A stretch of DNA of 64,000 nt from Candidatus Poseidoniaceae archaeon (lineage in GTDB: Archaea; Thermoplasmatota; Poseidoniia; Poseidoniales; Poseidoniaceae): the NCBI GenBank assembly GCA_049438185.1, contig JBMTJI010000005.1:2316-66315 (forward strand), in the 5' to 3' direction. A program made the position numbers and the translations under genes. Below the pieces are notes generated by a model. It had not been told where the DNA came from and did no database searches. It was given only the letters and a program-made list of their open reading frames with translations. Positions within the stretch are counted from its first letter, which is position 1; every line of letters begins with the position of its first letter. Positions 8,080 through 23,375 of this stretch are shown here, one piece after another.

Positions 8080-8489
8080 AGCATTTGTGGCCTTACCACA
8101 AAGATGCACTTGCATTGGGATTGGGTGCTTTTTTCATCTACGTTGGTATTCTTCATTTTACGGATGTTGAATGGTTCACACCGATCGTTCCTGAAGCCCT
8201 TCCACTCAGTGCAGAGTTCTGGGTCATCATCAGCGGCATACCTGAAGTTCTTTGTGGATTAGGGCTCATTCTACGACCTACTCGAGTCGTTGCTGGAAAA
8301 GCAACGGTTGTACTTCTCATCGTTCTTTATTGGGCGAACCTCAACATGTGGATCAACGATATTCCACTGAATGGAAACACGTTCCCATTGTGGGCACACA
8401 TTCTTCGAGCCTTTGCACAACTCGGTATGATCGCTGTAGCAGCGTATCTCAGTGATTGGATTCCAGAACTGAAATTGGGGGATGACTAA
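8076..8489 (+). CDS. Small integral membrane protein (about 4 TM, DoxX-like topology), function unknown
   Basis: ATGA overlap with the DRG stop codon. Four hydrophobic segments. Confidence 0.5.
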   Translation: MKHLWPYHKDALALGLGAFFIYVGILHFTDVEWFTPIVPEALPLSAEFWVIISGIPEVLCGLGLILRPTRVVAGKATVVLLIVLYWANLNMWINDIPLNGNTFPLWAHILRAFAQLGMIAVAAYLSDWIPELKLGDD

Positions 8490-11400
8490 ACCCACTTATC
8501 GTCACCATCTTCTCCATTTCGCACACGGATGAAGGCGATGAGCAAAACCAAGACTGTAATGAGTATTCCAATTTGTACCACACCACCCGATAGCGCTGAC
8601 GACTGTTCTTCCTCATCGATTGTACCTGTGGAATCATTCGGTGAATTCGGACTTGGGTTGTTGTTGTCTATATCCAAATCGATGGTAACTGAGATGCTAC
8701 TCTCATTCAGATTACCTGAAGCATCAGCGCTCTTGACCACGATTGTGTAATCACCATTGGCATATGCTTCTGTAATGATTTCATGATTCTTCTTTGTTGC
8801 GAACGCATCCTCGTGGATGGTCGCCCCACCTATTGAGACAAGTTCTGTAGCACTCTCGGATGTGTACCACGATATTCGCACACGGCCATCATCGAGGACT
8901 TCTGCATCCAAATTCAATAACTCAGGAGCGGTTTCATCGATGACATTGCTGGTGTTGAAGTAAAGAACAACATCGGCTGTATCGTTTGCACGAATGAACA
9001 CCCAATACGAAGTTCCAACCTCAAGATCGGTTAGGGTCACAGCGTGGTCGGTTCCTGAATCCGTTTCAAAAAGATTCGTTGTTTCATCAACTGGTTGTTG
9101 ATCTGCCAATACGTATTGAATCGAAGTCACATCGGAAACAGTGGTCGACCAAGTAAGAACTGCGCTGGAAGAGGTGACGGTTTCAACAGAGGCTCCAAAG
9201 ATTTGTTGTGGAATCTCTGGCATTTCAAAACCGGTTAGGGTCGCATAGATGTGCCCATCTACATCGTAGGATGACAACATTTGTTCTTGTCCTGTTCCCT
9301 CTAGAATCATGTCAATGATGTTTGGATCGTAATCAATTCCATCATCTGCAGCAGGATTTGATCCTCCACCAAGAGTCCATGTTGAAGGTGTCTCATCCAC
9401 ATCTCTCCATTTTCCTGTACCGAAACCATCCTGACTTCCAATCACGATGATGTATCGGTAGTTGGGGATGTCATCACCAATGACGTCTTTGCTGATCGTG
9501 AATGTGATGGTTTTCGCATCAATGTCTCCCGACACATCAATACCGCGAGAGGACGTACTCCCTGTCTCGGATTGGACTGCGAAGACTGCACCAGGTTCCC
9601 CTGTACCACTGATGGCAACTTCCCATGCCCATGCACTATCGATACGGGCATTCGCCCCATCAAGCATCGCTGTTGAGCCATAGGTCGTCTCGCCCTGATC
9701 GACGTAAATTTGGACGATCTGATGGCTAAATCCGTTGCTCAGACCCCAGATATCGGTCATCTCATCCATCTCAATAATGAATTGAGCATTCCAAGCGCTT
9801 TGGCGAATGGTCAGTTTCTTCGCATCCCACAAACCTCCATTGTTGGGCGTGGCGAAATCAGAAGCAAGTGGATAGATGTAATCACCGTCTCCGGTTTCAT
9901 CACCAATCGCATCATCGAGTTCAAGCAAGGTCACCCACTCCTCAAGATCTGGAAGGACGACTTCTGCAGGTGCAGGTGGCGCCATTTCTTTGTCCTCTCC
10001 GTCACCATAAGCGAGCGAGTCTGCGAGGGCTGCAACCACCTTGATTCGTGTCGAATAACGAGGTGCAAGTCCAATCTCCGACCAAGGGATGACAAACTCG
10101 TAGACATCTTGAACAGCACATCCGCCAAGTGCTGAACTACCGCTCAAAACCCATTGCTCCTGGTCTCCAGTCTTCCCTTTTGCAGTGAAAAGATTCCATT
10201 TGGCACGACCATCGTCCCGTAGCGTATCGAAATCGAATGCGACCATGTATTTTGAAGGGAAACTCAGAATCTGATTGCCATAGTAGGTACGGAAATTTGT
10301 TTCTGCTTCATTGAAATTCACAGCATTTGGTTGCATGAAATAGAGTGCTAAGTCAGGGGATTTTCCACCGAGTGACATGTTCTCAAGTTCGGTAATTGTT
10401 GTGGCATCCACTCGCACAAAAACATTCGACGCATCGTAGCCGACATAGAATTCCTCGATGTTAAATGGGGCTCCTTCGACTGGTGCATCATAGCGAGCTG
10501 CACCATCCCATTCACCCGGTAATGCGACACCGTCAACCATCGGTTCAATGATCGAAGAGGCTGCTGGCGAAGGTACTGCAGGGTTTGTCCATAGATCTTG
10601 CAAATATGGAGGAAGATCGAGATTGACCGCTCGATAAATATTGGAGAGATGAACCTTAAAGAGAACGTCCCAGTTCTCGTCGTAACCGCTGTCTTGATCA
10701 AGACCATACCACCAGAACCAATCACTACCCTCGGCAATGTACAACGATTCCCAAGCGGCTTCGAGACCTGGATCGTTTGGATTCTCTTCCTCGAAGGCTA
10801 CGAGTTGTTGTCGTGCCTCTACCAGCCGTTGCCACGCAAGGGATTCCTCTTCTTCACCAGCCCATGTACGAAGTGTTCCATCAATCCATGACCCTGTTCC
10901 AATGGTTTGAATCACTGGCAACGTCGGTTCGGATTCAAGGAATTCAGAAGGCGTCGTTGTTACAATTGTGGGGTGGGTTGCCAAACGACTGTACCACTCC
11001 GCCATGAAGGGGCGAGCGTTATCCTGGTGCTGGAATTCAGACATGAACATCCAATTCTCGCCGTCGAGTGCAACAGTGAGAAGATGCTCCGATGGGTCTT
11101 CGCCCGCATCGAGAAGCTGTTGCCGTATGTTATCGAGATATGCAATAAAATCTGAAACTGCAGCCTCTGGAGTCATCGTTCCGTATTGGAAAGCAATGCG
11201 GTCAGAGATGACACGATCACGGAAAATGACGGCAACTTCACCGCCATCCGCTCCAGTGACCTTCCATGGTGTTGCAAGGTTTGTAACATCCTCAACGTCG
11301 ATGTAGTCTCCGTTTTGATTGGTGGATTGTTTGAGAATCTCTTCATCCGTTACCATCCATTCAATTCCTACATCCGTGACGGGTTGAACCATGGCTGGAG

Positions 11401-12955
11401 AGACGGCTTCTTCACTCGGCCACATTCCTGTTGGCCGGAATCCAAGTTCATCCTCGAACAAATCCATACCGGTAATCAGATGGTTTTGAACATCCTCTGG
11501 CCAAGCTTCCTTGTTCACGCGAATACCGTCTTCCATTGTCCATCCTTCCATCATCAACAACGGCATAATGGGGTGGTAATATGGTGTGGTTGTGAGTTCA
11601 ATTTGTCCGTTTGCAGCAAGTTCACTGTACATAGGCAAAACGTTCCCCATGTGGGCGTGTTGAGCATCAAGCACGTAGTTCAAATCAGCAAGTTCGTAGT
11701 TCCCATTTTGCATGAACAAATCGATGAGCCCTTGATCACGGTGGCTTGAATTGTATGAGCCAAGGACGTAATCTGGTGAGAATTGATAAAGATACCAAAG
11801 AACCTGCAAGTCGAGGAAATCCTGTGGAGGAAGCAAGTCATCGTCCATGATGGTTGCTGGTTTGAGGTTGTGAAGCGTGTTGTCGTAGAGTTCTTTGTAG
11901 CGTGCACTCGAAGGATGGAGCCATCCAAGTTTCGGGTCGTCTACAGACACATTGTAAATCCAGCCACTGTTCCAAAACGACTGGAATTGCATCGTGTGGA
12001 GTTCAAGATCGGTTGCGTTCGGATATCCTCCCGTCGCCCAAGAGCGTTTGGCGATGTCCGTATGCACGTCAAGTGTTTCTTGTTCGTGATAGTCCACGAG
12101 TTGTTCAATAAATGATGGCACAAGGTTGTACGTCACCTTCGTATCCGTATCTGCAAGGATTCCAGGCGAATCCACGTATTCGGTCATTGCATGGACTCGA
12201 ACCCAAGGCATCTCGTACATGCCAGTGAGTTTATTCTTGTAATACGGCTGATGTTGATGGAAAACGATGGCGAGATTGAGAGCATCATCCACTTTACCCG
12301 CTGCCGCTGGTTGAATCACTGGAAGTTGGTTTGGAGAGGTCGCATTGTTGACGTTCTCGATGTGCCATGCATGGGTGAACGTTTCGGCTCCGTTGTTGCT
12401 TGCCGGATTCTGTTGTGGAAACGATGCCCAAACATTCCCTTCGTCTTGCCATTGAGCATACACAACGACGTCCAACGAGGTTGGAGAGCCGAGTTCAGAC
12501 CACGGTAGAGCAAACTCTGTCACCATATTACCTTCCCATCCCGCATAGAGTTCGACAACATGAGCGCTGTCAACCCATGCACTTCCATCATAGGATACGA
12601 GTCGGAAGTAGGTGTCATCCTCGAGAACAAATCCGTAATCTGCAGCGAATGGAAGGGTGTGGGAAAAGCCCCAATCCTTACTCAACACAGAACCTTGTGT
12701 TGAGGTGTTAAAGTAAATGAAGAGATCTGCTCCTTCTGAGGTTGATTTCCAATCGGTACCATCCCAGCCGATGTAAAGGTTGGATGCATCCCACGTCAAG
12801 TGCAAATCAACGTTGGTGCTCGACATCAACTCATCCGGATTCCAATCCGATAAATCACCATCAACAGTGATTGTTGTAGGCGTTTGTGAAAGAGCGAAAC
12901 CACCCATTGTTGATGTAATGAAAAGCAGGGACAATATTACAGCACTTCTCCGCAT
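8486..12955 (-). CDS. Surface-anchored GH57-family alpha-glucan hydrolase (amylopullulanase-like), about 1489 aa, with C-terminal beta-sandwich domains and TM anchor
   Basis: All five GH57 regions are present: HQHQPYY, GQIEL, WPSEE, ALDGENW, GSDWFWWYG. N-terminus MRRSAVILSLLFITSTMGGFALSQ is a signal peptide. C-terminus VVQIGILITVLVLLIAFIRVRNGEDGDD is a TM anchor. Track start 12994 is TTG. ATG at 12955 is preferred. Confidence 0.8.
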   Translation of the reverse strand: MRRSAVILSLLFITSTMGGFALSQTPTTITVDGDLSDWNPDELMSSTNVDLHLTWDASNLYIGWDGTDWKSTSEGADLFIYFNTSTQGSVLSKDWGFSHTLPFAADYGFVLEDDTYFRLVSYDGSAWVDSAHVVELYAGWEGNMVTEFALPWSELGSPTSLDVVVYAQWQDEGNVWASFPQQNPASNNGAETFTHAWHIENVNNATSPNQLPVIQPAAAGKVDDALNLAIVFHQHQPYYKNKLTGMYEMPWVRVHAMTEYVDSPGILADTDTKVTYNLVPSFIEQLVDYHEQETLDVHTDIAKRSWATGGYPNATDLELHTMQFQSFWNSGWIYNVSVDDPKLGWLHPSSARYKELYDNTLHNLKPATIMDDDLLPPQDFLDLQVLWYLYQFSPDYVLGSYNSSHRDQGLIDLFMQNGNYELADLNYVLDAQHAHMGNVLPMYSELAANGQIELTTTPYYHPIMPLLMMEGWTMEDGIRVNKEAWPEDVQNHLITGMDLFEDELGFRPTGMWPSEEAVSPAMVQPVTDVGIEWMVTDEEILKQSTNQNGDYIDVEDVTNLATPWKVTGADGGEVAVIFRDRVISDRIAFQYGTMTPEAAVSDFIAYLDNIRQQLLDAGEDPSEHLLTVALDGENWMFMSEFQHQDNARPFMAEWYSRLATHPTIVTTTPSEFLESEPTLPVIQTIGTGSWIDGTLRTWAGEEEESLAWQRLVEARQQLVAFEEENPNDPGLEAAWESLYIAEGSDWFWWYGLDQDSGYDENWDVLFKVHLSNIYRAVNLDLPPYLQDLWTNPAVPSPAASSIIEPMVDGVALPGEWDGAARYDAPVEGAPFNIEEFYVGYDASNVFVRVDATTITELENMSLGGKSPDLALYFMQPNAVNFNEAETNFRTYYGNQILSFPSKYMVAFDFDTLRDDGRAKWNLFTAKGKTGDQEQWVLSGSSALGGCAVQDVYEFVIPWSEIGLAPRYSTRIKVVAALADSLAYGDGEDKEMAPPAPAEVVLPDLEEWVTLLELDDAIGDETGDGDYIYPLASDFATPNNGGLWDAKKLTIRQSAWNAQFIIEMDEMTDIWGLSNGFSHQIVQIYVDQGETTYGSTAMLDGANARIDSAWAWEVAISGTGEPGAVFAVQSETGSTSSRGIDVSGDIDAKTITFTISKDVIGDDIPNYRYIIVIGSQDGFGTGKWRDVDETPSTWTLGGGSNPAADDGIDYDPNIIDMILEGTGQEQMLSSYDVDGHIYATLTGFEMPEIPQQIFGASVETVTSSSAVLTWSTTVSDVTSIQYVLADQQPVDETTNLFETDSGTDHAVTLTDLEVGTSYWVFIRANDTADVVLYFNTSNVIDETAPELLNLDAEVLDDGRVRISWYTSESATELVSIGGATIHEDAFATKKNHEIITEAYANGDYTIVVKSADASGNLNESSISVTIDLDIDNNNPSPNSPNDSTGTIDEEEQSSALSGGVVQIGILITVLVLLIAFIRVRNGEDGDDKWV

Positions 12956-12965
12956 TGCATAACCG

Positions 12966-12972
12966 TATAAAT
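12966..12972. promoter_or_regulatory. AT-rich TATAAAT element in the 46-nt divergent region between the GH57 and GH77 genes
   Basis: Divergent starts are at 12955 and 13002. TATAAAT lies about 30-36 nt upstream of the + gene ATG. Confidence 0.25.
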
Positions 12973-13001
12973 GATAATTTGAAAGGCTTTGCAAAGGACT
13001 G

Positions 13002-14255: not shown

Positions 14256-14300
14256 GGCAAGTTACAAAGAACTCATAACCTGATTAGACGAGCATACGCC

Positions 14301-15950: not shown

Positions 15951-18691
15951 TCGTCCCAATTGATTTCAACCGATTCATCCACTTGCAATCCCTTCTTTCT
16001 TCCAGTTAAACCAAGGAAGAGGGCTGCGAGGATTACGGCTCCAATTAACAAAGATCGTGTTATCGTGTGCGTTGAAGATTTGGAATCAGAGATTCCTTCT
16101 GAGTCACATGGAGCACAATTGACCATTGGACATGGTTCATCAGCTGCAACCTCGAATACATTCCCACAACACCCTTCGCACGTTTTCATTTCATTCGAAG
16201 TCGATGAATGCCCATCCGTCTCATTGCTCGGATTTGGCAATTGAGTTTCATTGGTTGAACTTGTTTGGTTCGTCGATTCATTGGTTTGAGTTGTGGTGTT
16301 TGTTTGGTTGTTTCCGCTCGGCTCCTGACAACTTGGGCAACATTCCCCTTCCTCTGCTGGCACTGTTATCCAACCAGCAGGACACGCATCACAGAGTACA
16401 TCGGCGCATGGGTCAACAGGATCGGTCTCATACTGACAACTTCCATCGTCTTGGGTTGCCTCAACGTCAAAGTTCGTTGCAGTGTTATCCATACAGCCAA
16501 AGATTGGTACAGGAGGGTATTCACATGACCCATCATCTTCAGTAGCGGATGGGTCAAAGTTTGTTGCTGATGAGTCCGTACAGCCGTAATCAGGAATCTC
16601 GACGACATCAGCATCAAGTTCGATTACGGTCACGGAATGTGCCCCTACGGAGAGTGTACCATCGAGCATTGATGAGTCACCAAAACGAACGACATCGTTG
16701 TTGGCAAAACCAGCAACCGTCGTCGGAGCACCACGATTGAGAACGATGGACATGACCTGATCATCGTGCGTCATGTTGTAAACGAGAAGATTCGACATTG
16801 CCAGTCGTGTGCTGTATTCGCCACGTTGTAATGCAATCGATTCTGATCGTAATTTACCAAGTTCTGAGATGTTCTCAAACAATTCAGATTCCATGGTACT
16901 CCACGAACTCTCATTTCGGTACATGTGACGATTATCGGGGTCTGCTCCTCCGTATTCGCCATATTCATCCCCGTAGTAAAGCAGTGGAGCACCCGGCGTG
17001 GTCAAGAGCCATCCATAAGCCTGCAGAGCAGCATTGTAAGCGGACGCATCACCAGGCTGACCAGGAAGACCGTCCTCAACCCATTGATTGAACGCATCAT
17101 TGGTTCCACTATCTGCTCGACTGGTCAATCGAGGCACATCGTGACTACCAACATAGGGCACCATGATGGAACCGTCGAGGTATTGATCTTGACTTCGGTT
17201 AGTCCAATAATCAAGATGCATGTAGTTCTCATTGCCAGAAACGAAGACGTTGTCAACAACTGCATGATAGAGCACAAAGTCAGCTTGTCCATCCAATCCA
17301 TCCGGACCCATGTACGCGTTGATGGTTCCATATTGTTCCTGATTGTCTATGAGTGAGTGACCCGCCCAACCCATGGCTGTCTCGCCTTTGAGATAGTAAT
17401 CGGTTCCAACCGTCTCAAAGCGTTCATTGACTTGAGCAACCAAGTTTCTTGTTGCTAAATCTTCAACATGCTTGACAGCATCAATACGAAGACCATCGAG
17501 ATCGTAGGTTTCCAACCACCACAAAGCATCATCAATGAATTGCTCAGAAGCATCTCGAATCTTCCAATTGACATCGGGCATGTAGGACGTAAATTGGCAA
17601 TCCAAACGGTGCTCGGTCCAGTCGCAGTTGGAAGTCCCACAGATACAACCCGCATTGAACCATTCAGGATTGTCTTGATAGTATGTGTGCTGTTCATGAA
17701 CGTGGTTCACGACAAAATCCATCATGACGCGAATGTCGTGGCCATGGGCTGCTTCAATCAATGCATGAAGTTCTTCTTCGGTACCCAACTTCGGTTCAAT
17801 TCCTCTTGGTTCCGTTGGCCAGTAACCATGGAAGGCAGAAACATCATGGATCCCATCTGCGGCTTTGCCCGTTCCATTCGCTGCCGTATTGAACGGAGAA
17901 AGCCAGAGCGCTCCGACCCCTAACTCATCAAAATAGCCAGATTCAATCATTTGGGTGACGCCTGCAAAGTCGCCACCTTGCCAATCAGCCCCTTGTGCTG
18001 CACCAACCATGGGCCCATCGTTTGATGTATTGCCATTGACGAATCGATCGGTCATGACCATGTAGATGAGCGCGTCTTGCCATTCAAAATCAGCAGATGG
18101 GCCAGTCCAGAACGGGACGAGTAAGTCGTATGCTGGATTACCATCGACATCGAATCCATCGATTTTGAGCGTATGCTTACCATCATCCAATCCACTCACA
18201 TCAAAAGTCCAAGTGAGGAGTTGCGAATCCCAGACAGCACCAGAAAGAGCAGAAGGGGTTCCACTGAAGGCAGCTCCTGAAGAACCGGGATGATACGTTA
18301 CAACGAGGGATTGAGCAACGAGTTCAGCACTGAAATGAGGGCGAGTGTGATCACGAACACGGACAAGTGAATTTTCGATATCGCCACAATACGAACGTTC
18401 TGGATTCATCGGGTCGAAGAGATACTGGCCATCAACAATGAACTTGTAACAATACAGACCTTCTTGCAATTCAATCTCAGCAGTCCAAACACCGTTTTGT
18501 TCAACCATGGGAACAGGATCGCTCCAGTTCCATTCACCAACCACGGCTACTTCTGTTGCAAAAGCCTTGAACGAAAATGAAGTCATGGTTGTCGAAGTAG
18601 GATGGGATGATGCTTGCACATCGTTGGAAGAGAGAGGTGAGAACACGACGAGAACCATCAATAGGATCAAACATCGAGCAATATTTTTCAT
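15938..18691 (-). CDS. Secreted, membrane-anchored GH13 alpha-amylase/pullulanase-family enzyme with N-terminal CBM48-like domain and Cys-rich C-terminal modules
   Basis: Signal peptide MKNIARCLILLMVLVVFSPLS. CBM48-like WNWSD...GLYCYKFIVDGQYLFDP. GH13 regions DFVVNH, GLRIDAVKHV, KGETAMGW, VGSHDVP. C-terminal TM LLIGAVILAALFLGLTGRKKG. Its ATG overlaps the upstream ABC ATPase stop (ATGA). Confidence 0.85.
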   Translation of the reverse strand: MKNIARCLILLMVLVVFSPLSSNDVQASSHPTSTTMTSFSFKAFATEVAVVGEWNWSDPVPMVEQNGVWTAEIELQEGLYCYKFIVDGQYLFDPMNPERSYCGDIENSLVRVRDHTRPHFSAELVAQSLVVTYHPGSSGAAFSGTPSALSGAVWDSQLLTWTFDVSGLDDGKHTLKIDGFDVDGNPAYDLLVPFWTGPSADFEWQDALIYMVMTDRFVNGNTSNDGPMVGAAQGADWQGGDFAGVTQMIESGYFDELGVGALWLSPFNTAANGTGKAADGIHDVSAFHGYWPTEPRGIEPKLGTEEELHALIEAAHGHDIRVMMDFVVNHVHEQHTYYQDNPEWFNAGCICGTSNCDWTEHRLDCQFTSYMPDVNWKIRDASEQFIDDALWWLETYDLDGLRIDAVKHVEDLATRNLVAQVNERFETVGTDYYLKGETAMGWAGHSLIDNQEQYGTINAYMGPDGLDGQADFVLYHAVVDNVFVSGNENYMHLDYWTNRSQDQYLDGSIMVPYVGSHDVPRLTSRADSGTNDAFNQWVEDGLPGQPGDASAYNAALQAYGWLLTTPGAPLLYYGDEYGEYGGADPDNRHMYRNESSWSTMESELFENISELGKLRSESIALQRGEYSTRLAMSNLLVYNMTHDDQVMSIVLNRGAPTTVAGFANNDVVRFGDSSMLDGTLSVGAHSVTVIELDADVVEIPDYGCTDSSATNFDPSATEDDGSCEYPPVPIFGCMDNTATNFDVEATQDDGSCQYETDPVDPCADVLCDACPAGWITVPAEEGECCPSCQEPSGNNQTNTTTQTNESTNQTSSTNETQLPNPSNETDGHSSTSNEMKTCEGCCGNVFEVAADEPCPMVNCAPCDSEGISDSKSSTHTITRSLLIGAVILAALFLGLTGRKKGLQVDESVEINWDDQEN
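16427..16591 (-). repeat. Tandem Cys-containing approximately 25-aa module x2 (DYGCTDSSATNFDPSATEDDGSCEY / IFGCMDNTATNFDVEATQDDGSCQY) inside the GH13 gene
   Basis: Read from the translation at aa 701-755. It is followed by a further Cys-rich stretch and a Thr/Asn/Ser-rich linker, through about 16106. Confidence 0.55.
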
Positions 18692-19482
18692 TCCTCACCC
18701 TCCATATCTTCTGGCTGCTTAAACAATGAATTCGCCGTATCGACCAAATCATCGATGTGTTTGCACAAGAATGAACGTACGAAATCATTGGCAGGGTTGT
18801 GGTAAGCTTCCAACGGCGCACAATGTTGTTGCAATTCACCCTTTTCGAGGATTGCAATTCGATCAGCAAGCGTCATTGCTTCGATTTGATCGTGGGTTAC
18901 ATAGATCGTTGTAGTACCAAGTTCGTCGTGCAGACGTCGAATCTCTTGTCGCATTTGATGCCGTAACTCTGCGTCCAAATTTGAGAGAGGTTCGTCCATG
19001 AGGAGAACCTTCGGTCGTCGTACCAATGCTCGTCCAAGCGCAACTCTCTGACGCTGACCTCCACTGAGTTCCTTCGGTTTCTTCCCAAGATGTTCACTGA
19101 GTTCAAGGAGGGTTGAAATCTCATCGACACGGGACGATATTTCATCCTCAGGCAACTTGTTTTCTCCTTTCATCATCCTTAGCCCGAAGGAGAGATTGTC
19201 GCGAATCGACATGTGAGGATACAATGCATAGGATTGGAACACCATACCCAAACCTCGAGCGCCAGCGGGGAGATGATTGACTTTCATTCCATCGATAAGG
19301 ATACTACCCCCTGTCACTTCTTCCAGGCCTGCAAGCATTCGAAGTGTGGTTGACTTACCACAACCTGATGGTCCCAAGAGAACCAAGAATTCCTTGTCCT
19401 TGATGTCAAGATTCAGATTTCTGACAGCATGAAATCCGTCATCGTATCGCTTGTTTACTTCTTCAAATTGTACGTTCACCAT
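18688..19482 (-). CDS. ABC transporter ATP-binding protein (MalK/UgpC-like, without C-terminal regulatory domain)
   Basis: Walker A GPSGCGKST, signature LSGGQRQR, Walker B LLMDEPLSNLD. Track start 19503 is GTG. ATG at 19482 (MVNVQFEEVNKRY) is preferred. Confidence 0.8.
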   Translation of the reverse strand: MVNVQFEEVNKRYDDGFHAVRNLNLDIKDKEFLVLLGPSGCGKSTTLRMLAGLEEVTGGSILIDGMKVNHLPAGARGLGMVFQSYALYPHMSIRDNLSFGLRMMKGENKLPEDEISSRVDEISTLLELSEHLGKKPKELSGGQRQRVALGRALVRRPKVLLMDEPLSNLDAELRHQMRQEIRRLHDELGTTTIYVTHDQIEAMTLADRIAILEKGELQQHCAPLEAYHNPANDFVRSFLCKHIDDLVDTANSLFKQPEDMEGEE

Positions 19483-19486
19483 GTTC

Positions 19487-20734
19487 TCACCCTTTGACGC
19501 CACCTGCGGATAATCCGTCGATCAAAAATTTCTGGAAGAAGAGGAAGAGCAAGGCCACTGGCAGACTGACCAACAGACTTGCGGCCGCAAAATCACCCCA
19601 CGCTTGTCCTGTTGAAGAGATAAGTGAAGCCAATCCAACTGGGAGCGTGTACATGTCGTTTGATGTGTTGAAGGTTAGCGCCAATAAGAATTCATTCCAA
19701 GCAGCCAAGAAACTGAACAGTGCCGTCACAGCGATTGCGGGCGTGGACAACGGTAGGACGACTCTGGTGAACACTTGGAATTGGTTGCATCCATCAAGAG
19801 CAGCAGCCTCTTCAAGTTCTCGTGGTATAGTGTCGAAGAATCCTTTCAACATCCAAACACAGAGAGGTAATGCTGTAACACAATAGGCTAGAATGAGCCC
19901 TAAATGTGAGTTGAGCAAACCGAGGGTCTTCATCACCAAGAAATATGGAACGAGAATAATCACGCCAGGGAACATCTGCACGAGAAGGAACGAGAACATC
20001 GAAACATCACGTCCAGTAAACTTGTAGCGACTAAATGCATATCCAGCAGGAATAGCGATAAACAATCCAAGCAGGGCCGTTCCGATACTCACAATCAGGG
20101 AATTCGTTAACCATGTCCAGAACGAATCACCGTTGAGAATTTTTGAGAAGTGTTCTGTGGTGAATGAATCACCGATTTGTCCGCCGAGAGCATTTCCTTC
20201 CGAGAAGGCAATATCAACAATCCAGATCAAAGGAATGACGGTAATGGCAACAAAGTGAAGGAGCGTAAGGTGAGTGGATGTAGCATGGAATATCTTGCTT
20301 AGATTTGCATTTCGCATCAAACCGTATTCGATCGCAGAATCCGATAGTTTCCTTGACGTCCATACCGTAACAGGCCGCCCCGATAACCAATACAAGGTCA
20401 AGCCTGACGGCAGGATGCTCCAACAATGGATCCAGATGTTGAAAACCGTCACTTCAATGCGTAAGAGTCGATAAACGCCAATTCCAAGCAACATTGCACT
20501 CAGCACCAAGCAACTGTTTCGACGCAGGTGATCGTTGACATTGGGAAGGGATGCGCGAAGCGCTGCAAACAAAGCACAAGTGAGTATTCCAAGGAGAAGC
20601 AGATCGGACTCCGCACGGAGATAATCCACTGTGAGGAGAAGGACGTTGATGAGGAAAGCTGCGACAAGCCAACGTCTCAACATGACGATTTCAATAGGCA
20701 CATACCACCAACGCATGTCCTCTGAATTGGTCAT
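19487..20734 (-). CDS. Carbohydrate ABC transporter permease (MalG-like) with N-terminal extension
   Basis: Contains the permease EAA-loop region EEAAALDGCNQFQVFTRVVLP. An ATG at 20734 gives an ATGA overlap with the upstream fusion gene stop. The track start 20815 would overlap it by 85 nt. Confidence 0.7.
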   Translation of the reverse strand: MTNSEDMRWWYVPIEIVMLRRWLVAAFLINVLLLTVDYLRAESDLLLLGILTCALFAALRASLPNVNDHLRRNSCLVLSAMLLGIGVYRLLRIEVTVFNIWIHCWSILPSGLTLYWLSGRPVTVWTSRKLSDSAIEYGLMRNANLSKIFHATSTHLTLLHFVAITVIPLIWIVDIAFSEGNALGGQIGDSFTTEHFSKILNGDSFWTWLTNSLIVSIGTALLGLFIAIPAGYAFSRYKFTGRDVSMFSFLLVQMFPGVIILVPYFLVMKTLGLLNSHLGLILAYCVTALPLCVWMLKGFFDTIPRELEEAAALDGCNQFQVFTRVVLPLSTPAIAVTALFSFLAAWNEFLLALTFNTSNDMYTLPVGLASLISSTGQAWGDFAAASLLVSLPVALLFLFFQKFLIDGLSAGGVKG

Positions 20735-23352
20735 CGCACCGCCTCCGTAGCATTGGTTTGTTTCATGTATCGCCAAGAGAAGGCAAACAACATCATGAAG
20801 ATGATGACCGACCAAGCGGCAGCCACTCCGTAAGCGCCTTCTCTAAAGGCTACATCATACACATATGTGATCAAAATATCCGTTTGACCAGGCTCACCAA
20901 AGTAGAGATTTGGGCCTCCATCGGTCATCAAATAAATCACGTTGAACATGTTGAACGTCCAAATGAAACCGAGAAGCGTCAGAGGAATCAATGCACTGCG
21001 TAAATTTGGAAGTGTAAGATGCCGGAATGCAGTCCACCCCATGATTCCATCAATTTCAGCAGCTTCGTACATGTTCTTCGGAAGCGATTGTAATGCACCA
21101 CTAATGGACATCATCATGAAGGGAACGCCAAGCCAAATGTTGACAAGAATCACAATAATTTGAGCACCCGTTGGGTCGGAGAGGAAATCGATGTTGGTAC
21201 CCAAGAGATCGTTTACGAATCCATCAGGTTGGAACATCCCTCTCCATACGAGAACCGAGATGTACGAAGGAACAGCCCATGGCAGCAACAACAGTGTGCG
21301 GTACGCCATCTTCCCTTGAATTCGACTGCGATGCAAGAGGATCGCTAGGAAGAGTCCGATACCGATGTGCGCGGATACGTTGACGAAAGTCCAAACGAGT
21401 GTAAACAAGGTCACTCGCAGGAACCCATCAGAGGAAAACACCTCCCAGAAATTGTCCAAACCAATGAACGATTGATCCCCAAGTTGTGTCTGATTTGCAT
21501 CCGTAAAGGCAAGCCAGAACCCGTACAAGACGGGATAAAACGTGAGGATGGCTAAGGCAAGTAAAGCAGGTGCGACGTAGAAATGGGCAAGTTTGGAATT
21601 TGTTCGGCCAAGCCTTGTATCATTCCATTTTGCAAAACTCAACAAGGCGATTAAGGAGAGAACAATTGCACCAAGTGCGAACATGACTGGCGATGTATTG
21701 CCTGCTTGTGGTCGTTCATCGGCTACAGCTGTGCTTCCAGTTGTCGAATAGATCAGCACGCTGTCTGCAAAAACTTCGATTCGATGTTCTTGTTCAGGCA
21801 CCATGCCTGTAAGGTCGCATTGAATCAATTCTGTCGTTTGTGAAATGATTCGAACCTGTCCTTGTTGAAGCAACTCATCGAATCCATCAGTGCATGTATC
21901 GTACCCGAGAATTGTGCCATTGTTTGTAGATTCAAGTCGAATCTGGGTGTGCAAGGCTCCATCAACAAGGATGTCGTACAACGTGGCATTGGTCATCTGA
22001 AATTCGAGTGAAATTGTACGATATCCTTCTGTTAGGGGGTACGGTTCAGCACGAGAAATTGAATCCATTTGCTCCTGAAGTTGTTGGTTGGCACCTGACA
22101 ATGCTTCCTCAGTGGTGGCAATCTCCGAGTAAGCCTGTTCAAAGGCAGTTGACAGTGGGTCATAGACCAGCGACATCGCCCGAGTTGTTGGAGCCGGTGT
22201 TCCTTCTTTGGTTTGCTCGAGGAAACCTGAAAGCACCTCGTCTTCAGTGATTTCAGCATCGAACTCCAAAGCAACATGTGTTGGCATTGTGTACGTGTCA
22301 ACAGCGAATTCTTTCTGAACAGCCTCGGAAGAGAGCCATAGTGCAAGTTCGGTCGCTGCAACCTTGTTGGCACTTTGCTTGCTAACAGTCCAACCTTTGT
22401 AGGTTACAAGCGGTGACATTCGTTCTCCTGAGGTTTCAACCAGCGGCAACAAGGTTTGACCGATGTTTAAGCGACTTGCCTCATACGTAGCCCAATTCCA
22501 CGGGCCATCGAAAATCATCGCAGCTTTCGAGGAGATGAATTGGTTTTTCATGCCTTCAATCTGTGTCCCTGTAGCGACGACACCATGCTCCAACTCCAAA
22601 TCAAGCATCCATCGCATGGCTTCACTGGAACCGTTGGAGTTGAGGGTTGGTTCACCGTTTTCATCAAAAAGTGAGCCGCCGAATCCTTCCTGTATTGGGA
22701 ACCACCAATACGCAGTCTTGATTGGAATTGCAAGTCCTTGCACATCTTGGTAGGTCAATGATTCAGCGGCCTGGAGCAAATCTTGTTCCGTCCAAGTTTC
22801 ATCTGGATAAGCAAGACCTTGTGCATCAAACAATGCTTTGTTAAAGATTAACGAAAGACAATCTTGGCTTGCAGGTACGCCATACAACGAATCACCATAC
22901 CGCATGGCTTGCAATGCTCGCTCTTCGAACTGCGCCCTATCTTGTGGTGTAAGATGAGGACGTAGATCCTCCAGGAGTGGGAAGCCATCAACTCGAACCT
23001 CTCCAATTGCACCCAGTTGATCACTCGAGAGACGCATCAAATCAGGAGCTTGTCCCCCTTGAGCAGCCGTCATGAACAGTTGGTCTGCATTTCCAAATGG
23101 AACCATTGTCACATCAACGGTTATGTTTGGATGTGAAGATTCAAACGAATTGATTGCGTTCATGAACACTTCTTCTTCCTTACTTTCAGCCGCAAATGTA
23201 TGCCAAACCTCAAGTTCAATGATTCCATTTGAAGCGTTTTCTTCCAAATCTTGCTGGCTATTACCAAGGCAACCTGATAAGAAAATCATCGAAAAAAGGA
23301 CAATTGCAAGAAGTCGCTTCCGAGTGGAAGAACCCAGCATCATGCCCTTCAT
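20731..23352 (-). CDS. Fusion protein: lipoprotein-type carbohydrate substrate-binding protein (MalE-like) fused to ABC permease (MalF-like), 873 aa
   Basis: Signal/lipobox MKGMMLGSSTRKRLLAIVLFSMIFLSGCLG. The SBP domain runs to about aa 420. A roughly 130-aa middle domain is followed by a TM helix and a six-TM permease core with EAA-like region EAAEIDGIMGWTAFRHLTLP. It is a single uninterrupted ORF. Confidence 0.75.
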   Translation of the reverse strand: MKGMMLGSSTRKRLLAIVLFSMIFLSGCLGNSQQDLEENASNGIIELEVWHTFAAESKEEEVFMNAINSFESSHPNITVDVTMVPFGNADQLFMTAAQGGQAPDLMRLSSDQLGAIGEVRVDGFPLLEDLRPHLTPQDRAQFEERALQAMRYGDSLYGVPASQDCLSLIFNKALFDAQGLAYPDETWTEQDLLQAAESLTYQDVQGLAIPIKTAYWWFPIQEGFGGSLFDENGEPTLNSNGSSEAMRWMLDLELEHGVVATGTQIEGMKNQFISSKAAMIFDGPWNWATYEASRLNIGQTLLPLVETSGERMSPLVTYKGWTVSKQSANKVAATELALWLSSEAVQKEFAVDTYTMPTHVALEFDAEITEDEVLSGFLEQTKEGTPAPTTRAMSLVYDPLSTAFEQAYSEIATTEEALSGANQQLQEQMDSISRAEPYPLTEGYRTISLEFQMTNATLYDILVDGALHTQIRLESTNNGTILGYDTCTDGFDELLQQGQVRIISQTTELIQCDLTGMVPEQEHRIEVFADSVLIYSTTGSTAVADERPQAGNTSPVMFALGAIVLSLIALLSFAKWNDTRLGRTNSKLAHFYVAPALLALAILTFYPVLYGFWLAFTDANQTQLGDQSFIGLDNFWEVFSSDGFLRVTLFTLVWTFVNVSAHIGIGLFLAILLHRSRIQGKMAYRTLLLLPWAVPSYISVLVWRGMFQPDGFVNDLLGTNIDFLSDPTGAQIIVILVNIWLGVPFMMMSISGALQSLPKNMYEAAEIDGIMGWTAFRHLTLPNLRSALIPLTLLGFIWTFNMFNVIYLMTDGGPNLYFGEPGQTDILITYVYDVAFREGAYGVAAAWSVIIFMMLFAFSWRYMKQTNATEAVR

Positions 23353-23375
23353 GTTTCGGCCTTGAATTACGCCAA

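What the first reader, a model, noticed from the sequence alone, without database searches (positions are those of the whole stretch)
8486..23352. Complete extracellular-to-cytoplasmic alpha-glucan (starch/glycogen) utilisation locus with membrane-anchored GH57 and GH13 enzymes
Seven adjacent genes make a coherent pathway:
- A 1489-aa GH57 enzyme (HQHQP, GQIEL, WPSEE, ALDGEN, GSDWFWW) with signal peptide and C-terminal TM anchor.
- A GH77 4-alpha-glucanotransferase (DHFRGF).
- A GT35 phosphorylase (SGGLGVLAGD, EASGTSGMK).
- A four-gene minus-strand operon: SBP::permease fusion, MalG-like permease, MalK-like ATPase and GH13+CBM48 amylase.
The operon genes are joined by ATGA overlaps or 4-nt gaps. 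Both extracellular hydrolases are tethered by C-terminal TM helices. Tethering implies cell-surface depolymerisation, oligosaccharide import, then intracellular disproportionation and phosphorolysis. This is an archaeal, gene-dense analogue of a bacterial polysaccharide utilisation locus.
Basis: partly seen in the sequence, partly recalled or inferred. Interest (0 to 1): 0.6.

Follow-up and report, generated by a model that had tools for sequence, protein, structure and literature searches.

The report
Archaeal surface starch/glycogen uptake gene cluster
A marine planktonic archaeon (Marine Group IIa, Poseidoniaceae) carries a seven-gene cluster, kept across its whole order, that most likely cuts starch or glycogen at the cell surface, imports the fragments through an oddly built ABC transporter and breaks them down inside; the enzymes were already known in this group, but the cluster layout and the transporter's build appear undescribed.

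Summary
Seven intact genes at 8486-23352 are assigned by HMMs:
- GH57 with a Glucodextran_C module
- GH77
- a short-type GT35 phosphorylase
- GH13 with CBM48
- a MalK-like ATPase
- a MalG-like permease
- a MalE::MalF fusion

All catalytic residues and ABC motifs are present. Only GH57 and GH13 carry an N-terminal signal-like segment plus a C-terminal hydrophobic anchor followed by basic residues.

The host is a Poseidoniaceae (MGIIa) archaeon. In 46 of 47 species-level genomes with enough sequence, all seven genes keep the same order and orientation while the flanks differ.

It is not new in kind.
- GH13/GH57/GH77 and a maltose transporter are already reported for MGII.
- The Thermococcales mdxEFG-apu-mdxK operon is a close archaeal precedent.
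- C-terminal anchoring of an archaeal GH57 amylase is experimentally known.

I found no description of the transporter's build: binding protein fused to MalF through a beta-domain stalk, MalK lacking its C-terminal regulatory domain (255-266 aa in all 69 loci), and MalG with a roughly four-helix N-terminal extension. Function remains inferred. Interest is moderate.

The parts
8486..12955 (-). GH57 amylopullulanase-like surface enzyme, 1489 aa. Layout: signal-like N-terminus, unassigned N-terminal beta domain, GH57 catalytic domain, unassigned middle domain, Glucodextran_C, two fn3/Ig-like domains, C-terminal anchor.
   Evidence: PF03065 at 1.2e-51 and PF09985 at 8e-50. The best solved relative is the Aquifex amylopullulanase AaApu, E 5.6e-49. 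It is 40% identical end to end to a 1407-aa GH57 of another Thermoplasmatota MAG.
10646..12271 (-). GH57 catalytic domain (about aa 229-770). Nucleophile E515 sits in WPSEE (nt 11411-11413). Acid/base D631 sits in ALDGEN (nt 11063-11065).
   Evidence: E515 and D631 align to AaApu E256 and D352 (residue roles from PMC12106739). CSR-5 ends in WW, the amylopullulanase fingerprint (PMC6037648).
9233..9925 (-). Glucodextran_C (SLH-like binding module) of the GH57 protein, aa 1011-1241.
   Evidence: PF09985, 8e-50, covering 227 of 228 profile positions.
8528..8584 (-). C-terminal hydrophobic anchor of GH57 (GVVQIGILITVLVLLIAFI), followed by RVRNGEDGDDKWV.
   Evidence: Kyte-Doolittle mean 2.85 over 19 aa. 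The same two-part motif (hydrophobic stretch plus charged residues) anchors the S. solfataricus GH57 AmyA (PMC5023256).
12972..12990 (-). Conserved promoter-like element AAAGCCTTTCAAATTATCA in the 46-nt divergent spacer between GH57 and GH77. Its TATA-like core starts 29 nt upstream of the GH57 ATG.
   Evidence: Conserved in position and sequence across related loci. The role as a BRE/TATA element driving a leaderless mRNA is inferred.
13002..14255 (+). GH77 4-alpha-glucanotransferase (MalQ/amylomaltase type), 417 aa, cytoplasmic.
   Evidence: PF02446 at 6e-125; TIGR00217 above its cut-off. Best solved relatives are plant DPE1 and the Aquifex and Thermus amylomaltases, E 4e-109 to 5e-95. IDHFRGF, AEDLG and GTHDN are present. 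No hydrophobic segment.
14301..15950 (+). Short-type GT35 alpha-glucan (maltodextrin) phosphorylase, 549 aa, cytoplasmic.
   Evidence: TIGR02094, 530.7 bits against a cut-off of 191.7. Solved 'alpha-glucan family phosphorylase' hits at E 2e-85. EASGTSGMK at aa 446-454; the view that its Lys binds PLP is my own knowledge. No hydrophobic segment.
15938..18691 (-). GH13 alpha-amylase with N-terminal CBM48, 917 aa. Carries a signal-like N-terminus, a Cys-rich and Thr/Asn/Gln-rich stalk, and a C-terminal anchor. Last gene of the transporter operon.
   Evidence: PF00128 at 1.6e-38 and PF16561 at 1.4e-11. Best solved relatives are the Geobacillus GTA (4e2o) and Anoxybacillus TASKA (5a2a) alpha-amylases, E 1e-39 and 4e-36. 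Motifs DFVVNH, GLRID404AVKH, KGE437T and GSHD518 are present and align to GTA; the roles of D404, E437 and D518 as the catalytic triad are my own knowledge of GH13.
18353..18583 (-). CBM48-type glycogen/starch-binding module of the GH13 protein (aa 37-113).
   Evidence: PF16561 AMPK1_CBM, 44.9 bits against a cut-off of 26.8.
16007..16063 (-). C-terminal hydrophobic anchor of GH13 (ITRSLLIGAVILAALFLGL), followed by TGRKKGLQ...
   Evidence: Kyte-Doolittle mean 2.21. The basic residues lie on the C-terminal side.
18688..19482 (-). MalK-like ATPase reduced to the nucleotide-binding domain, 264 aa. The C-terminal regulatory (OB_MalK/TOBE) domain is absent.
   Evidence: PF00005 at 3.7e-34. It aligns only to residues 1-245 of solved sugar-transporter ATPases of 353-406 aa. 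Length is 255-266 aa in all 69 related loci. The Thermoplasmatota relative in L081 has 352 aa with OB_MalK and TOBE_2. Walker A, signature and Walker B motifs are present.
19487..20734 (-). MalG-like permease, 415 aa. A 145-aa N-terminal extension precedes the six-helix core, which carries the EAA motif.
   Evidence: NF008231 MalG at 7.5e-58 covers only the C-terminal 270 aa. EEAAALDG at aa 308-315.
20300..20734 (-). N-terminal extension of MalG (aa 1-145). Three clear hydrophobic segments plus one weaker one, read as four extra helices.
   Evidence: Hydropathy and my reading of the loop charges. No Pfam match. Present in all related loci, at 56% mean identity against 88% for the core. Absent from the 273-aa MalG of L081.
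20731..23352 (-). MalE::MalF fusion, 873 aa. Layout: lipobox signal (LSGC, aa 25-28), maltodextrin-type binding domain, beta-domain stalk, one extra helix, six-helix MalF core.
   Evidence: PF01547/PF13416 plus PF00528 on one ORF. Full-length orthologues in 80 species-level genomes. L25, G27 and C28 are invariant in the alignment.
22063..23247 (-). Substrate-binding domain of the fusion (aa 36-430).
   Evidence: Every relative in the 60 best rows is a maltose-, maltodextrin-, cyclodextrin- or acarbose-binding protein or an engineered fusion carrying E. coli MalE, E 1e-27 to 1e-18.
21730..22020 (-). All-beta stalk domain between the binding domain and the membrane (aa 445-541).
   Evidence: This is the only well-predicted part of the AF2 model (pLDDT 70-85, 8-9 strands). 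It has no Pfam hit and no significant fold match. It is the least conserved part, at 44% identity. In split-gene relatives it forms the N-terminal ectodomain of MalF, behind its own signal peptide (P0278).
21613..21687 (-). Extra transmembrane helix returning the chain from outside to the cytoplasmic N-terminus of the MalF core.
   Evidence: Kyte-Doolittle mean 2.58, followed by KWNDTRLGRTNSK. 71% identity across loci.
20734..21612 (-). MalF-type permease core with the EAA motif (YEAAEIDG, aa 762-769).
   Evidence: NF008232 MalF at 3.8e-57.
23375..23382 (-). Conserved TATA-like box GTTTAAGT, 23-30 nt upstream of the MalEF ATG.
   Evidence: The same box (GTTTAAGT or GTTTAAT) sits at the same distance in related loci, including loci whose upstream gene differs. 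Promoter function is inferred.

Best explanation
This is the alpha-glucan (starch, glycogen or pullulan-type) acquisition locus of a Poseidoniaceae (MGIIa) archaeon.

**Step 1, outside the cell.** Two hydrolases are exported through Sec-type signal peptides. Each stays on the cell surface, held by a C-terminal hydrophobic helix with a basic cytoplasmic tail.
- The 1489-aa GH57 enzyme is amylopullulanase-like. It should cut alpha-1,4 and probably alpha-1,6 bonds.
- The GH13 enzyme is an endo-alpha-amylase with a CBM48 glycogen/starch-binding module.

**Step 2, import.** A CUT1-type ABC importer takes up the released maltodextrins. Its maltodextrin-binding domain is covalently tied to the MalF-like permease through a beta-domain stalk and one extra helix. 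Its partners are a MalG-like permease with a four-helix extension and two copies of a MalK-like ATPase that has no regulatory domain.

**Step 3, inside the cell.** GH77 disproportionates the maltodextrins, giving longer chains plus glucose. The GT35 phosphorylase then releases glucose-1-phosphate.

**Transcription.** There are three units.
- malEF-malG-malK-GH13, translationally coupled.
- GH77-GT35.
- GH57, divergent from GH77 across a shared 46-nt spacer.
The malEF and GH57 units each have a conserved TATA-like box about 30 nt upstream of the ATG, which points to leaderless mRNAs.

**Shown here:** family membership, intact catalytic and ABC motifs, predicted topology, and order-wide conservation of the block.
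**Inferred:** substrate, enzyme activities, tethering rather than release, transcript structure, and regulation.
For: **Families and active sites.**
- HMM assignments are above the curated cut-offs.
- GH57 E515 and D631 align to the catalytic pair of the characterised AaApu.
- CSR-5 of the GH57 enzyme ends in WW, the amylopullulanase fingerprint.
- The GH13 conserved regions with D404, E437 and D518 are present; their catalytic roles are my own knowledge.
- The GH77 and GT35 motifs align to solved enzymes.

**Binding domain.** Every relative in the 60 best rows is a maltose-, maltodextrin- or cyclodextrin-type binding protein or an engineered MalE fusion.

**Topology.** Only GH57 and GH13 have a signal segment plus a C-terminal anchor. 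The cytoplasmic enzymes have no hydrophobic segment.

**Precedent for anchoring.** An identical two-part C-terminal motif anchors S. solfataricus GH57 AmyA, and its loss halves the growth rate on starch.

**Operon structure.** Junctions are ATGA, 4 nt and ATGA.

**Conservation.**
- All seven genes keep the same order and orientation in 46 of 47 genomes with at least 8.5 kb downstream.
- The upstream neighbour is conserved in only 23 of 62.
- The same gene set occurs in lineages with split malE/malF.
- A more distant Thermoplasmatota MAG has a GH57 - MalE::MalF - MalG - MalK cluster.

**Promoters.** Conserved TATA-like boxes.

**Closest precedent.** The Thermococcales maltodextrin operon with amylopullulanase.
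Against: - No experiment exists for any of these proteins; MGII is uncultured.
- Topology comes from hydropathy only. SignalP and TMHMM were not available.
- The anchors could be cleaved and the enzymes released. S. solfataricus AmyA is mostly found in the supernatant.
- The binding domain's best NCBIfam hit is GanS, a galacto-oligosaccharide binder (6.5e-33), slightly ahead of MalE (2e-28). JGI annotates the orthologues as 'arabinogalactan oligomer/maltooligosaccharide' transporters.
- An importer whose MalK lacks the C-terminal domain and whose binding protein is fused has, to my knowledge, not been shown to work in the CUT1 family.
- No regulator, glucokinase or phosphoglucomutase lies in the locus.
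Confidence: 0.8

Rival explanations
1. The hydrolases are secreted enzymes. The C-terminal hydrophobic segment is a transient or cleaved sorting signal, so depolymerisation happens in free solution as a public good. The rest of the pathway is unchanged.
For: In S. solfataricus most AmyA is found in the supernatant and only a minor fraction stays membrane-associated (PMC5023256). No experiment addresses MGII.
Against: Both anchors are long (19 aa or more), strongly hydrophobic and followed by RVR or RKK. Both proteins have long stalk regions (fn3/Ig repeats; a Thr/Asn/Gln-rich linker) in front of the anchor, as expected for surface display. In dilute seawater, released enzymes would give little return; that point is inference. 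I saw no PGF-CTERM-type sorting motif when reading the two C-termini.
Confidence: 0.12
2. The locus serves turnover of the cell's own glycogen. GH77 and GT35 degrade internal glycogen, and GH57 acts as a branching enzyme or glucanotransferase.
For: GH77 and GT35 also act in glycogen catabolism elsewhere (own knowledge). GH57 includes branching enzymes, and there are weak NCBIfam hits to them at E 1.6e-4 and 6e-3.
Against: - GH57 and GH13 carry export signals and anchors.
- Solved GH57 branching enzymes are not matched at E 1e-3, whereas amylopullulanase is matched at 5.6e-49.
- The branching-enzyme NCBIfam scores (20 and 15 bits) lie far below the cut-offs of 1000 and 920.
- No glycogen synthase or ADP-glucose pyrophosphorylase is in the window.
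- An importer is embedded in the block.
Confidence: 0.04
3. It is a cyclodextrin-type pathway. The GH13 enzyme makes cyclodextrins outside the cell, and a CycB-like binding domain captures them for import.
For: CGTases are among the GH13 hits at E about 1e-29, and the cyclo/maltodextrin-binding protein 2zyk is among the best binding-domain hits at 1e-26.
Against: Many of the listed CGTase matches cover only the first part of the catalytic region (query about 206-423), though a few run to query 660. The best full-length matches are plain alpha-amylases. No CGTase C-terminal domain or CBM20 was found by Pfam. No cytoplasmic cyclomaltodextrinase is in the locus; the cytoplasmic enzymes are MalQ and MalP types.
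Confidence: 0.04
4. The transporter imports a different oligosaccharide, such as galacto- or arabinogalactan oligomers, and sits next to alpha-glucan enzymes only by history.
For: The best NCBIfam hit of the binding domain is GanS. JGI annotates the orthologues as 'arabinogalactan oligomer/maltooligosaccharide transport system'.
Against: The GH13 gene is translationally coupled to malK by an ATGA overlap. The four alpha-glucan enzymes stay with the transporter in 46 of 47 genomes and in distant lineages. All solved relatives of the binding domain bind alpha-glucan oligomers. No galactan-active enzyme is present.
Confidence: 0.03

Closest known systems
Thermococcales maltodextrin (MD/mdx, 'Mal-II') operon: mdxE-mdxF-mdxG-pulA(apu)-mdxK of Pyrococcus furiosus, Thermococcus litoralis and T. 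kodakarensis TK1771-1775
   Same: Both are archaeal. Both place a CUT1 maltodextrin ABC importer in one cluster with a large extracellular GH57 amylopullulanase (PMC4158304; PMC2246101). In both, cytoplasmic breakdown runs through a 4-alpha-glucanotransferase and a short-type maltodextrin phosphorylase; the window's GT35 hits the Thermococcales MalP model at 6e-130, below its cut-off.
   Different: - Here the binding protein is fused to MalF.
- MalK lacks the C-terminal domain.
- MalG has a 145-aa membrane extension.
- The hydrolase inside the operon is a GH13 amylase, not the GH57, which is transcribed divergently.
- The glucanotransferase is GH77; Thermococcales use GH57 for this step (PMC9582752 abstract).
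- MalQ and MalP lie within the cluster.
- The host is a mesophile.
- No TrmB-family gene was detected in the window by Pfam and no TGM motif is in the locus.
Sulfolobus (Saccharolobus) solfataricus GH57 alpha-amylase AmyA
   Same: An extracellular archaeal GH57 enzyme with a two-part C-terminal motif (hydrophobic stretch plus charged residues). The motif mediates membrane association and improves growth on starch (PMC5023256).
   Different: AmyA has a lipobox-type signal peptide. The paper does not place it beside the transporter and catabolic genes. The domain composition differs.
Bacteroidota starch utilisation system (Sus) / alpha-glucan PULs
   Same: The logic is the same: surface-tethered amylases, capture of oligomers at the surface, import, internal breakdown, all encoded together (own knowledge of the Sus paradigm).
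   Different: There is no outer membrane, no SusC TonB-dependent transporter, no SusD and no hybrid two-component or SusR regulator. Import is by an ABC transporter. The resemblance is analogy, not homology.
ABC importers with fused substrate-binding domains (OpuA, GlnPQ)
   Same: A binding domain is covalently tethered to a transmembrane domain of a type I importer (PMC3971661; GlnPQ abstract PMC8025302).
   Different: Those are amino-acid and osmolyte transporters with homodimeric TMDs. In them the binding domains are placed differently (own knowledge). Here the fusion is N-terminal MalE to MalF in a heterodimeric sugar (CUT1) system, with a beta-domain stalk. I found no description of such a CUT1 fusion in the searchable literature.
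Geobacillus GTA / Anoxybacillus ASKA-TASKA alpha-amylases (GH13)
   Same: These are the best solved relatives of the GH13 catalytic domain. From my own knowledge, they also carry a C-terminal hydrophobic membrane-anchor region in the native proteins.
   Different: They are bacterial and thermophilic, lack CBM48 and lack the Cys-rich and Thr/Asn-rich stalk. The CSR-V motif here reads MPDVN. The CAZy subfamily was not assigned because dbCAN was not available.

Membership tests
GH57 (CAZy), amylopullulanase group | Pfam/CAZy GH57 catalytic domain with the five conserved sequence regions | tested here: met
   PF03065 at 1.2e-51. HQHQP, GQIEL, WPSEE, ALDGEN and AEGSDWFWW are present. The CSR definition comes from PMC6037648.
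GH57 (CAZy), amylopullulanase group | Catalytic Glu nucleophile (CSR-3) and Asp proton donor (CSR-4) | tested here: met
   E515 and D631 align with AaApu E256 and D352.
GH57 (CAZy), amylopullulanase group | Amylopullulanase fingerprint: two Trp at the end of CSR-5; closest to characterised amylopullulanases | tested here: met
   CSR-5 ends in WW. AaApu is matched at 5.6e-49, against 9e-12 for the next distinct GH57 structure and no branching enzyme at 1e-3. The source paper notes that the WW rule is 'not unambiguous'.
GH57 (CAZy), amylopullulanase group | [quoted passage not shown] | not testable with these tools
   Needs enzyme assays on pullulan, starch and glycogen.
GH13 alpha-amylase | Catalytic (beta/alpha)8 domain with conserved regions I-IV and the Asp/Glu/Asp triad | tested here: met
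   PF00128 at 1.6e-38. DFVVNH, GLRID404AVKH, KGE437T and GSHD518 are present and align to GTA 4e2o. The triad roles are my own knowledge of the family.
GH13 alpha-amylase | CAZy subfamily assignment | not tested
   No dbCAN or CAZy subfamily models were available. The best solved relatives are GTA and TASKA.
CBM48 | Match to the glycogen-binding AMPK-beta/CBM48 module above the gathering score | tested here: met
   PF16561, 44.9 bits against a cut-off of 26.8, aa 37-113.
GH77 4-alpha-glucanotransferase (MalQ) | GH77 domain above the curated cut-off, with the Asp/Glu/Asp catalytic motifs | tested here: met
   PF02446 at 6e-125; TIGR00217 at 212.8 against 205.65. IDHFRGF, AEDLG and GTHDN align with DPE1 and Thermus amylomaltase. 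The protein is about 80 aa shorter than typical, with a deletion between aa 66 and 79 relative to DPE1.
GT35 alpha-glucan phosphorylase (short type, TIGR02094) | Model score above the cut-off; PLP-binding Lys motif | tested here: met
   530.7 bits against 191.7. EASGTSGMK at aa 446-454. Solved alpha-glucan family phosphorylases match at 2e-85. That the Lys binds PLP is my own knowledge.
CUT1-type (maltose/maltodextrin) ABC importer | Cluster-B sugar-binding protein of the MalE family | tested here: met
   PF01547 and PF13416. Every relative in the 60 best rows is a maltose- or maltodextrin-type binding protein or an engineered MalE fusion.
CUT1-type (maltose/maltodextrin) ABC importer | Two different permeases (MalF-like and MalG-like), each with an EAA coupling motif | tested here: met
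   NF008232 MalF at 3.8e-57; NF008231 MalG at 7.5e-58. The EAA motifs are present.
CUT1-type (maltose/maltodextrin) ABC importer | Four separate gene products, with a free or lipid-anchored binding protein | tested here: not met
   The binding domain and MalF form one 873-aa ORF, conserved in 80 species-level genomes. The canonical four-product layout is described in PMC11212667.
CUT1-type (maltose/maltodextrin) ABC importer | MalK-type ATPase with a C-terminal regulatory (OB_MalK/TOBE) domain | tested here: not met
   The protein has 264 aa and aligns only to residues 1-245 of ATPases of 353-406 aa. No TOBE or OB_MalK hit. This holds in all 69 loci. The NBD itself is MalK/UgpC-like, at 1e-97 to 2.5e-105.
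Thermococcales MD (mdx) operon | mdxE, mdxF, mdxG, amylopullulanase and mdxK clustered | tested here: met
   All five functions are clustered, though in a different order and with E-F fused (definition). Orthology to the mdx genes was not tested phylogenetically.
Thermococcales MD (mdx) operon | Control by TrmB/TrmBL1 (TACT half-site or TGM TATCAC-N5-GTGATA) | tested here: not met
   No TGM lies in the locus; the two window matches with 2 mismatches are at chance level. No TrmB-family Pfam hit appears among the window ORFs scanned. A regulator elsewhere in the genome cannot be excluded.
Bacteroidota PUL | Adjacent SusC-like TonB-dependent transporter and SusD-like lipoprotein | tested here: not met
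   No such Pfam families appear among the locus or flanking genes. The host is an archaeon without an outer membrane. The resemblance is functional analogy only.

The most novel reading that the evidence does not exclude
The Poseidoniales importer may be a distinct, so far uncharacterised build of a type I sugar ABC transporter. It has three unusual features:
- The binding domain is permanently tethered to MalF, with a lipobox at one end and a beta-stalk plus helix at the other.
- The ATPase is stripped of its regulatory domain.
- MalG carries a four-helix extension.

Together with the two anchored amylases, it could form a surface 'capture-and-import' assembly that gives a wall-less planktonic archaeon a selfish-like uptake of alpha-glucan, with little loss of hydrolysis products. 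On this reading the extra MalG helices, or the conserved MalK tail FLCKHIDDLVxTANxLF, would replace the lost regulatory or dimerising function, or would dock the enzymes.
Probability: 0.2. Interest if true: 0.65.

Novelty: new variant of a known kind. Interest (0 to 1): 0.4.

Why it matters
MGII (Poseidoniales) are the most abundant archaea in the surface ocean, remain uncultured, and are usually described as protein and lipid consumers with very few carbohydrate-active enzymes. One survey found about 1 CAZyme per Mbp (PMC10710508).

This locus holds four carbohydrate-active enzymes in one block. It is kept as a block across the order. It therefore gives a concrete, testable route by which these archaea could take part in turnover of marine alpha-glucan (algal starch, cyanobacterial and bacterial glycogen).

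It also offers mesophilic GH57 and GH13 enzymes. And it offers a natural single-chain receptor-permease sugar importer without the MalK regulatory domain, which is useful for asking which parts of the maltose-transporter paradigm are dispensable.

Tried and rejected
1. **AF2 model of the full MalE::MalF protein.** I used it only for the beta-stalk domain, not for docking or topology.
2. **AF2 of the stalk alone, then Foldseek against the PDB.** Single-sequence pLDDT was 57. No match reached E 1e-3 or better and all TM-scores were 0.6 or lower. The fold stays unassigned beyond 'beta-sandwich-like'.
3. **Pfam at E up to 1 on the unassigned segments** (GH57 N-terminal and middle domains, GH57 insertion, GH13 C-terminal region, stalk, MalG extension). 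Nothing usable came back.
4. **Homologue search with the distant fused protein P0124.** It returned only 10 proteins, so it could not deepen the alignment. It did unlock the useful context look-up.
5. **Cluster look-ups to name the organisms carrying other MalE::MalF or MalF::MalG fusions.** Most have no names. Taxonomy outside Thermoplasmatota stays open.
6. **Tat export of GH57.** I considered this because of the MRR start. I rejected it because the second Arg is not conserved in other lineages (MRT, MRS, MKR).
7. **A shared operator between the malEF and GH57/GH77 promoters, and the Thermococcales TGM.** Neither was found.
8. **Erra-Pujada 1999 on the T. hydrothermalis Apu domain structure.** The paper is not held. 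Statements about its SLH-like motifs and C-terminal hydrophobic region would rest on my memory, so I did not use them as evidence.
9. **The sigma-70 promoter/terminator scanner.** Not used, because it does not apply to archaea.

Full report
**What is in the sequence**

Seven intact ORFs fill 8486-23352 with almost no non-coding DNA. HMM searches assign them as follows.
- **8486-12955(-), 1489 aa.** GH57 (PF03065, 1.2e-51), followed by Glucodextran_C (PF09985, 8e-50) and weak fn3/Ig-like matches.
- **13002-14255(+).** GH77 (6e-125; TIGR00217 above its cut-off).
- **14301-15950(+).** Short-type alpha-glucan phosphorylase (TIGR02094, 530.7 bits against a cut-off of 191.7).
- **15938-18691(-).** GH13 alpha-amylase domain (1.6e-38) behind a CBM48-type module (PF16561, 1.4e-11).
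- **18688-19482(-).** ABC ATPase closest to UgpC and MalK.
- **19487-20734(-).** MalG-like permease.
- **20731-23352(-).** One ORF carrying both a sugar-binding-protein domain and a MalF-like permease domain.

The junctions are as stated: ATGA overlap, 4-nt gap, ATGA overlap. GT35 and GH13 converge and overlap by 13 nt. GH57 and GH77 diverge across only 46 nt.

**Active sites and closest characterised relatives**

- **GH57.** The best solved relative is the Aquifex aeolicus amylopullulanase AaApu (E 5.6e-49). Solved branching enzymes are not matched at 1e-3. Residues E515 and D631 align with the experimentally defined nucleophile E256 and acid/base D352 of AaApu. Conserved region 5 ends in two tryptophans, the fingerprint reported for GH57 amylopullulanases.
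- **GH13.** The closest solved relatives are the Geobacillus GTA and Anoxybacillus TASKA alpha-amylases. D404, E437 and D518 sit in the conserved regions; their roles as the catalytic triad are my own knowledge of the family.
- **GH77.** Aligns to plant DPE1 and the Thermus and Aquifex amylomaltases, with the catalytic motifs intact. It is shorter than usual.
- **GT35.** Aligns over its full length to solved 'alpha-glucan family phosphorylases' and keeps the EASGTSGMK motif; that its Lys binds PLP is my own knowledge.
- **Binding domain of the fusion.** Every relative in the 60 best rows is a maltose-, maltodextrin-, cyclodextrin- or acarbose-binding protein or an engineered MalE fusion.

**Topology**

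I had no SignalP or TMHMM. Kyte-Doolittle windows and the positive-inside rule give a consistent picture.
- GH57 and GH13 each have a basic N-terminus with a hydrophobic core. Each also has a single C-terminal hydrophobic segment, followed by RVR or RKK.
- GH77, GT35 and the ATPase have no hydrophobic segment.
- The second Arg of the GH57 N-terminus (MRR) is not conserved in other lineages. Export through Sec is therefore more likely than through Tat.
- The same two-part C-terminal motif has been shown to hold the S. solfataricus GH57 amylase at the membrane and to improve growth on starch.

**Host and conservation**

Neighbouring genes point to an archaeon: a DRG-type GTPase, archaeosine TGT with a PUA domain, a GrpE homologue and SufBD. 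Orthologues of the fusion protein are named Poseidoniaceae, Poseidoniales or Thermoplasmatota.

A scan of one genome per GTDB species found 228 stretches encoding a relative. The best 80 loci are almost all titled as Poseidoniales or other archaeal MAGs, with full-length matches at 61-97% identity. Three carry bacterial titles; see the side observations.

I mapped the seven proteins onto these loci with tblastn.
- All seven genes keep the same order and orientation in 46 of the 47 loci that extend at least 8.5 kb downstream.
- The upstream neighbour (TruA) is kept in only 23 of 62.

So the block is maintained independently of its surroundings.

Two context look-ups extend this result. Other Poseidoniales lineages have the same gene set with malE and malF as separate, overlapping genes. 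In L083, GT35 and GH77 are in the opposite order. In L084 they are called as a single 1028-aa product.

A more distant Thermoplasmatota MAG carries a related cluster: a 1407-aa GH57 with Glucodextran_C, then a MalE::MalF fusion, then MalG, then MalK. That GH57 is 40% identical end to end to the window's.

**The transporter is unusual**

1. **The fusion.**
   - Layout: a lipobox signal (LSGC; L, G and C are invariant) leads into the binding domain. Then come an all-beta stalk of about 100 aa, one extra helix and the six-helix MalF core.
   - The stalk: it is the only confidently modelled part of a poor AF2 model. It has no Pfam or fold match and is the least conserved segment, at 44% identity against 78-83% for the flanking domains.
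   - Split-gene relatives: there the stalk is the N-terminal ectodomain of MalF, behind its own signal peptide (P0278).
2. **The ATPase.** It has 264 aa and aligns only to residues 1-245 of solved sugar-transporter ATPases of 353-406 aa. The C-terminal OB/TOBE domain is missing. Length is 255-266 aa in all 69 loci and 257-259 aa in the split lineages. The distant Thermoplasmatota relative keeps a 352-aa MalK with OB_MalK and TOBE_2, 62% identical over the NBD. The loss is therefore a derived trait of Poseidoniales.
3. **MalG.** It has a 145-aa N-terminal extension that I read as four helices. The extension is present in all loci at 56% identity, against 88% for the core. It is absent from the distant relative, whose MalG has 273 aa.

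MalE::MalF fusion itself is not unique to this order. Among the 150 best 50%-identity cluster representatives, about 30 have the binding domain and the MalF domain on one chain, at 31-44% identity. Five are MalF::MalG fusions.

Reviews describe CUT1 systems as four separate products. They cite binding-domain fusions only in general terms. I found no paper describing a CUT1 fusion.

**Transcription (inferred)**

- A GTTTAAGT/GTTTAAT box sits 23-30 nt upstream of the malEF ATG, including in loci with a different upstream gene.
- A conserved AAAGCCTTTCAA(A/T)(T/C)TATCA element sits in the GH57-GH77 spacer. Its TATA-like core starts about 29 nt upstream of the GH57 ATG.
- Both fit archaeal TATA boxes driving leaderless mRNAs.
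- No Thermococcales glycolytic motif is present. No TrmB-type gene was detected in the window.

**Most likely mechanism**

1. Surface-anchored GH57 (amylopullulanase-like) and GH13 (CBM48 amylase) cut external starch or glycogen into maltodextrins.
2. The tethered binding domain hands these to the MalF/MalG channel, which is powered by the domain-less MalK.
3. In the cytoplasm, GH77 disproportionates the maltodextrins and GT35 releases glucose-1-phosphate.

My confidence is about 0.8. The families, motifs, topology prediction and conservation are shown here. Substrate, activities, retention at the surface and regulation are inferred.

The rivals are weaker: released enzymes, internal glycogen turnover, a cyclodextrin route, or another imported glycan. 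Reasons are given with each rival.

**Comparison with what is known, and novelty**

- **Closest system.** The Thermococcales maltodextrin operon mdxE-mdxF-mdxG-pulA-mdxK.
- **Tethering principle.** Known from S. solfataricus AmyA.
- **PUL comparison.** Analogy only, because no SusC or SusD is present.
- **Prior reports for MGII.** Tully 2019 reports starch- and glycogen-type hydrolases in MGIIa and basal MGIIb. Rinke 2019 reports a maltose transporter with an associated glucanotransferase. Orellana 2019 cites GH13, GH57 and GH77 for genus M.

The gene content is therefore known. What I could not find described is the order-wide seven-gene architecture and the particular transporter build. I rate the finding as a new variant of a known kind, with interest 0.4.

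**Side observations**

Three loci with bacterial record titles carry this archaeal block, which suggests mis-binned contigs. Other items are listed under 'noticed in passing'.

Noticed in passing
L002 (CAXQWT010000006.1), L007 (CALDQY010000136.1), L070 (NZEQ01000026.1): Contigs in MAGs titled Salipiger bermudensis, Rhodobiaceae bacterium and Verrucomicrobiales bacterium carry the archaeal seven-gene block, at 66-90% identity for the fusion protein. L002 and L007 also carry the same archaeal flanking genes. They are probably mis-binned Poseidoniales contigs inside bacterial species-representative genomes.
   Followed up: partly
L084:13939-17025 (-): In one Poseidoniales lineage the phosphorylase and the 4-alpha-glucanotransferase are called as a single 1028-aa product (PF00343 plus PF02446). 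In L083 the two genes overlap by 23 nt and stand in the opposite order to the window. This could be a natural MalP::MalQ fusion. It was not checked for frameshift or gene-calling artefacts.
   Followed up: no
L083:8041-8724 and L084:5055-5699: In the lineages with split malE/malF, a HAD-family hydrolase gene sits directly upstream of malE, where the window has TruA. It could be a phosphoglucomutase- or phosphatase-type addition to the pathway.
   Followed up: no
P0137, P0142, P0143, P0145, P0151 (metagenomic proteins, no window coordinates): Relatives of 832-1127 aa fuse an N-terminal beta ectodomain, MalF, a multi-helix spacer and MalG into one chain (MalF::MalG fusions). Their organisms are unnamed.
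   Followed up: partly
window 16436-16582 (-), GH13 aa 704-752: Two tandem copies of a 20-aa Cys-bounded motif, C-x-D-x2-ATNFD-x2-AT-x-DDGSC, occur here and nowhere else in the window. They are followed by Cys-rich stretches and a Thr/Asn/Gln-rich low-complexity stalk in front of the anchor. No meaningful Pfam match; the only hit in this segment is a sub-threshold one to PsaN (16.6 bits against a cut-off of 21).
   Followed up: partly
window 60499-63276 (-): A 925-aa ORF has a Pfam CD36-family match (PF01130, 4.6e-13, aa 62-155). CD36 is, to my knowledge, a eukaryotic lipid scavenger-receptor family, so the match is unexpected in an archaeon reputed to feed on lipids.
   Followed up: no
window 3603-6881 (+): A 1092-aa ORF with a thrombospondin type 3 repeat match lies two genes away from the GH57 gene. 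Thrombospondin genes are discussed as adhesion factors in MGII (PMC6461757).
   Followed up: no
window 57743-57819 (-) and ORF 56826-57797 (-): tRNA-Thr(TGT) overlaps the 5' end of the mechanically listed FolD ORF (GTG start). The true FolD start must lie further downstream.
   Followed up: no
window 43064-46563 (+): A DUF835 protein (558 aa) is followed, with a 4-nt overlap, by a 608-aa protein carrying a DnaA-type ATPase domain. The function of the pair is unknown.
   Followed up: no
window 12245-11594 (-), GH57 aa about 302-408: The GH57 catalytic domain carries about 40 more residues than AaApu in the non-conserved region between the two aligned blocks (query 302-408 against chain 80-145). 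The region is shared with the distant Thermoplasmatota GH57 in L081. Its role is unknown.
   Followed up: no
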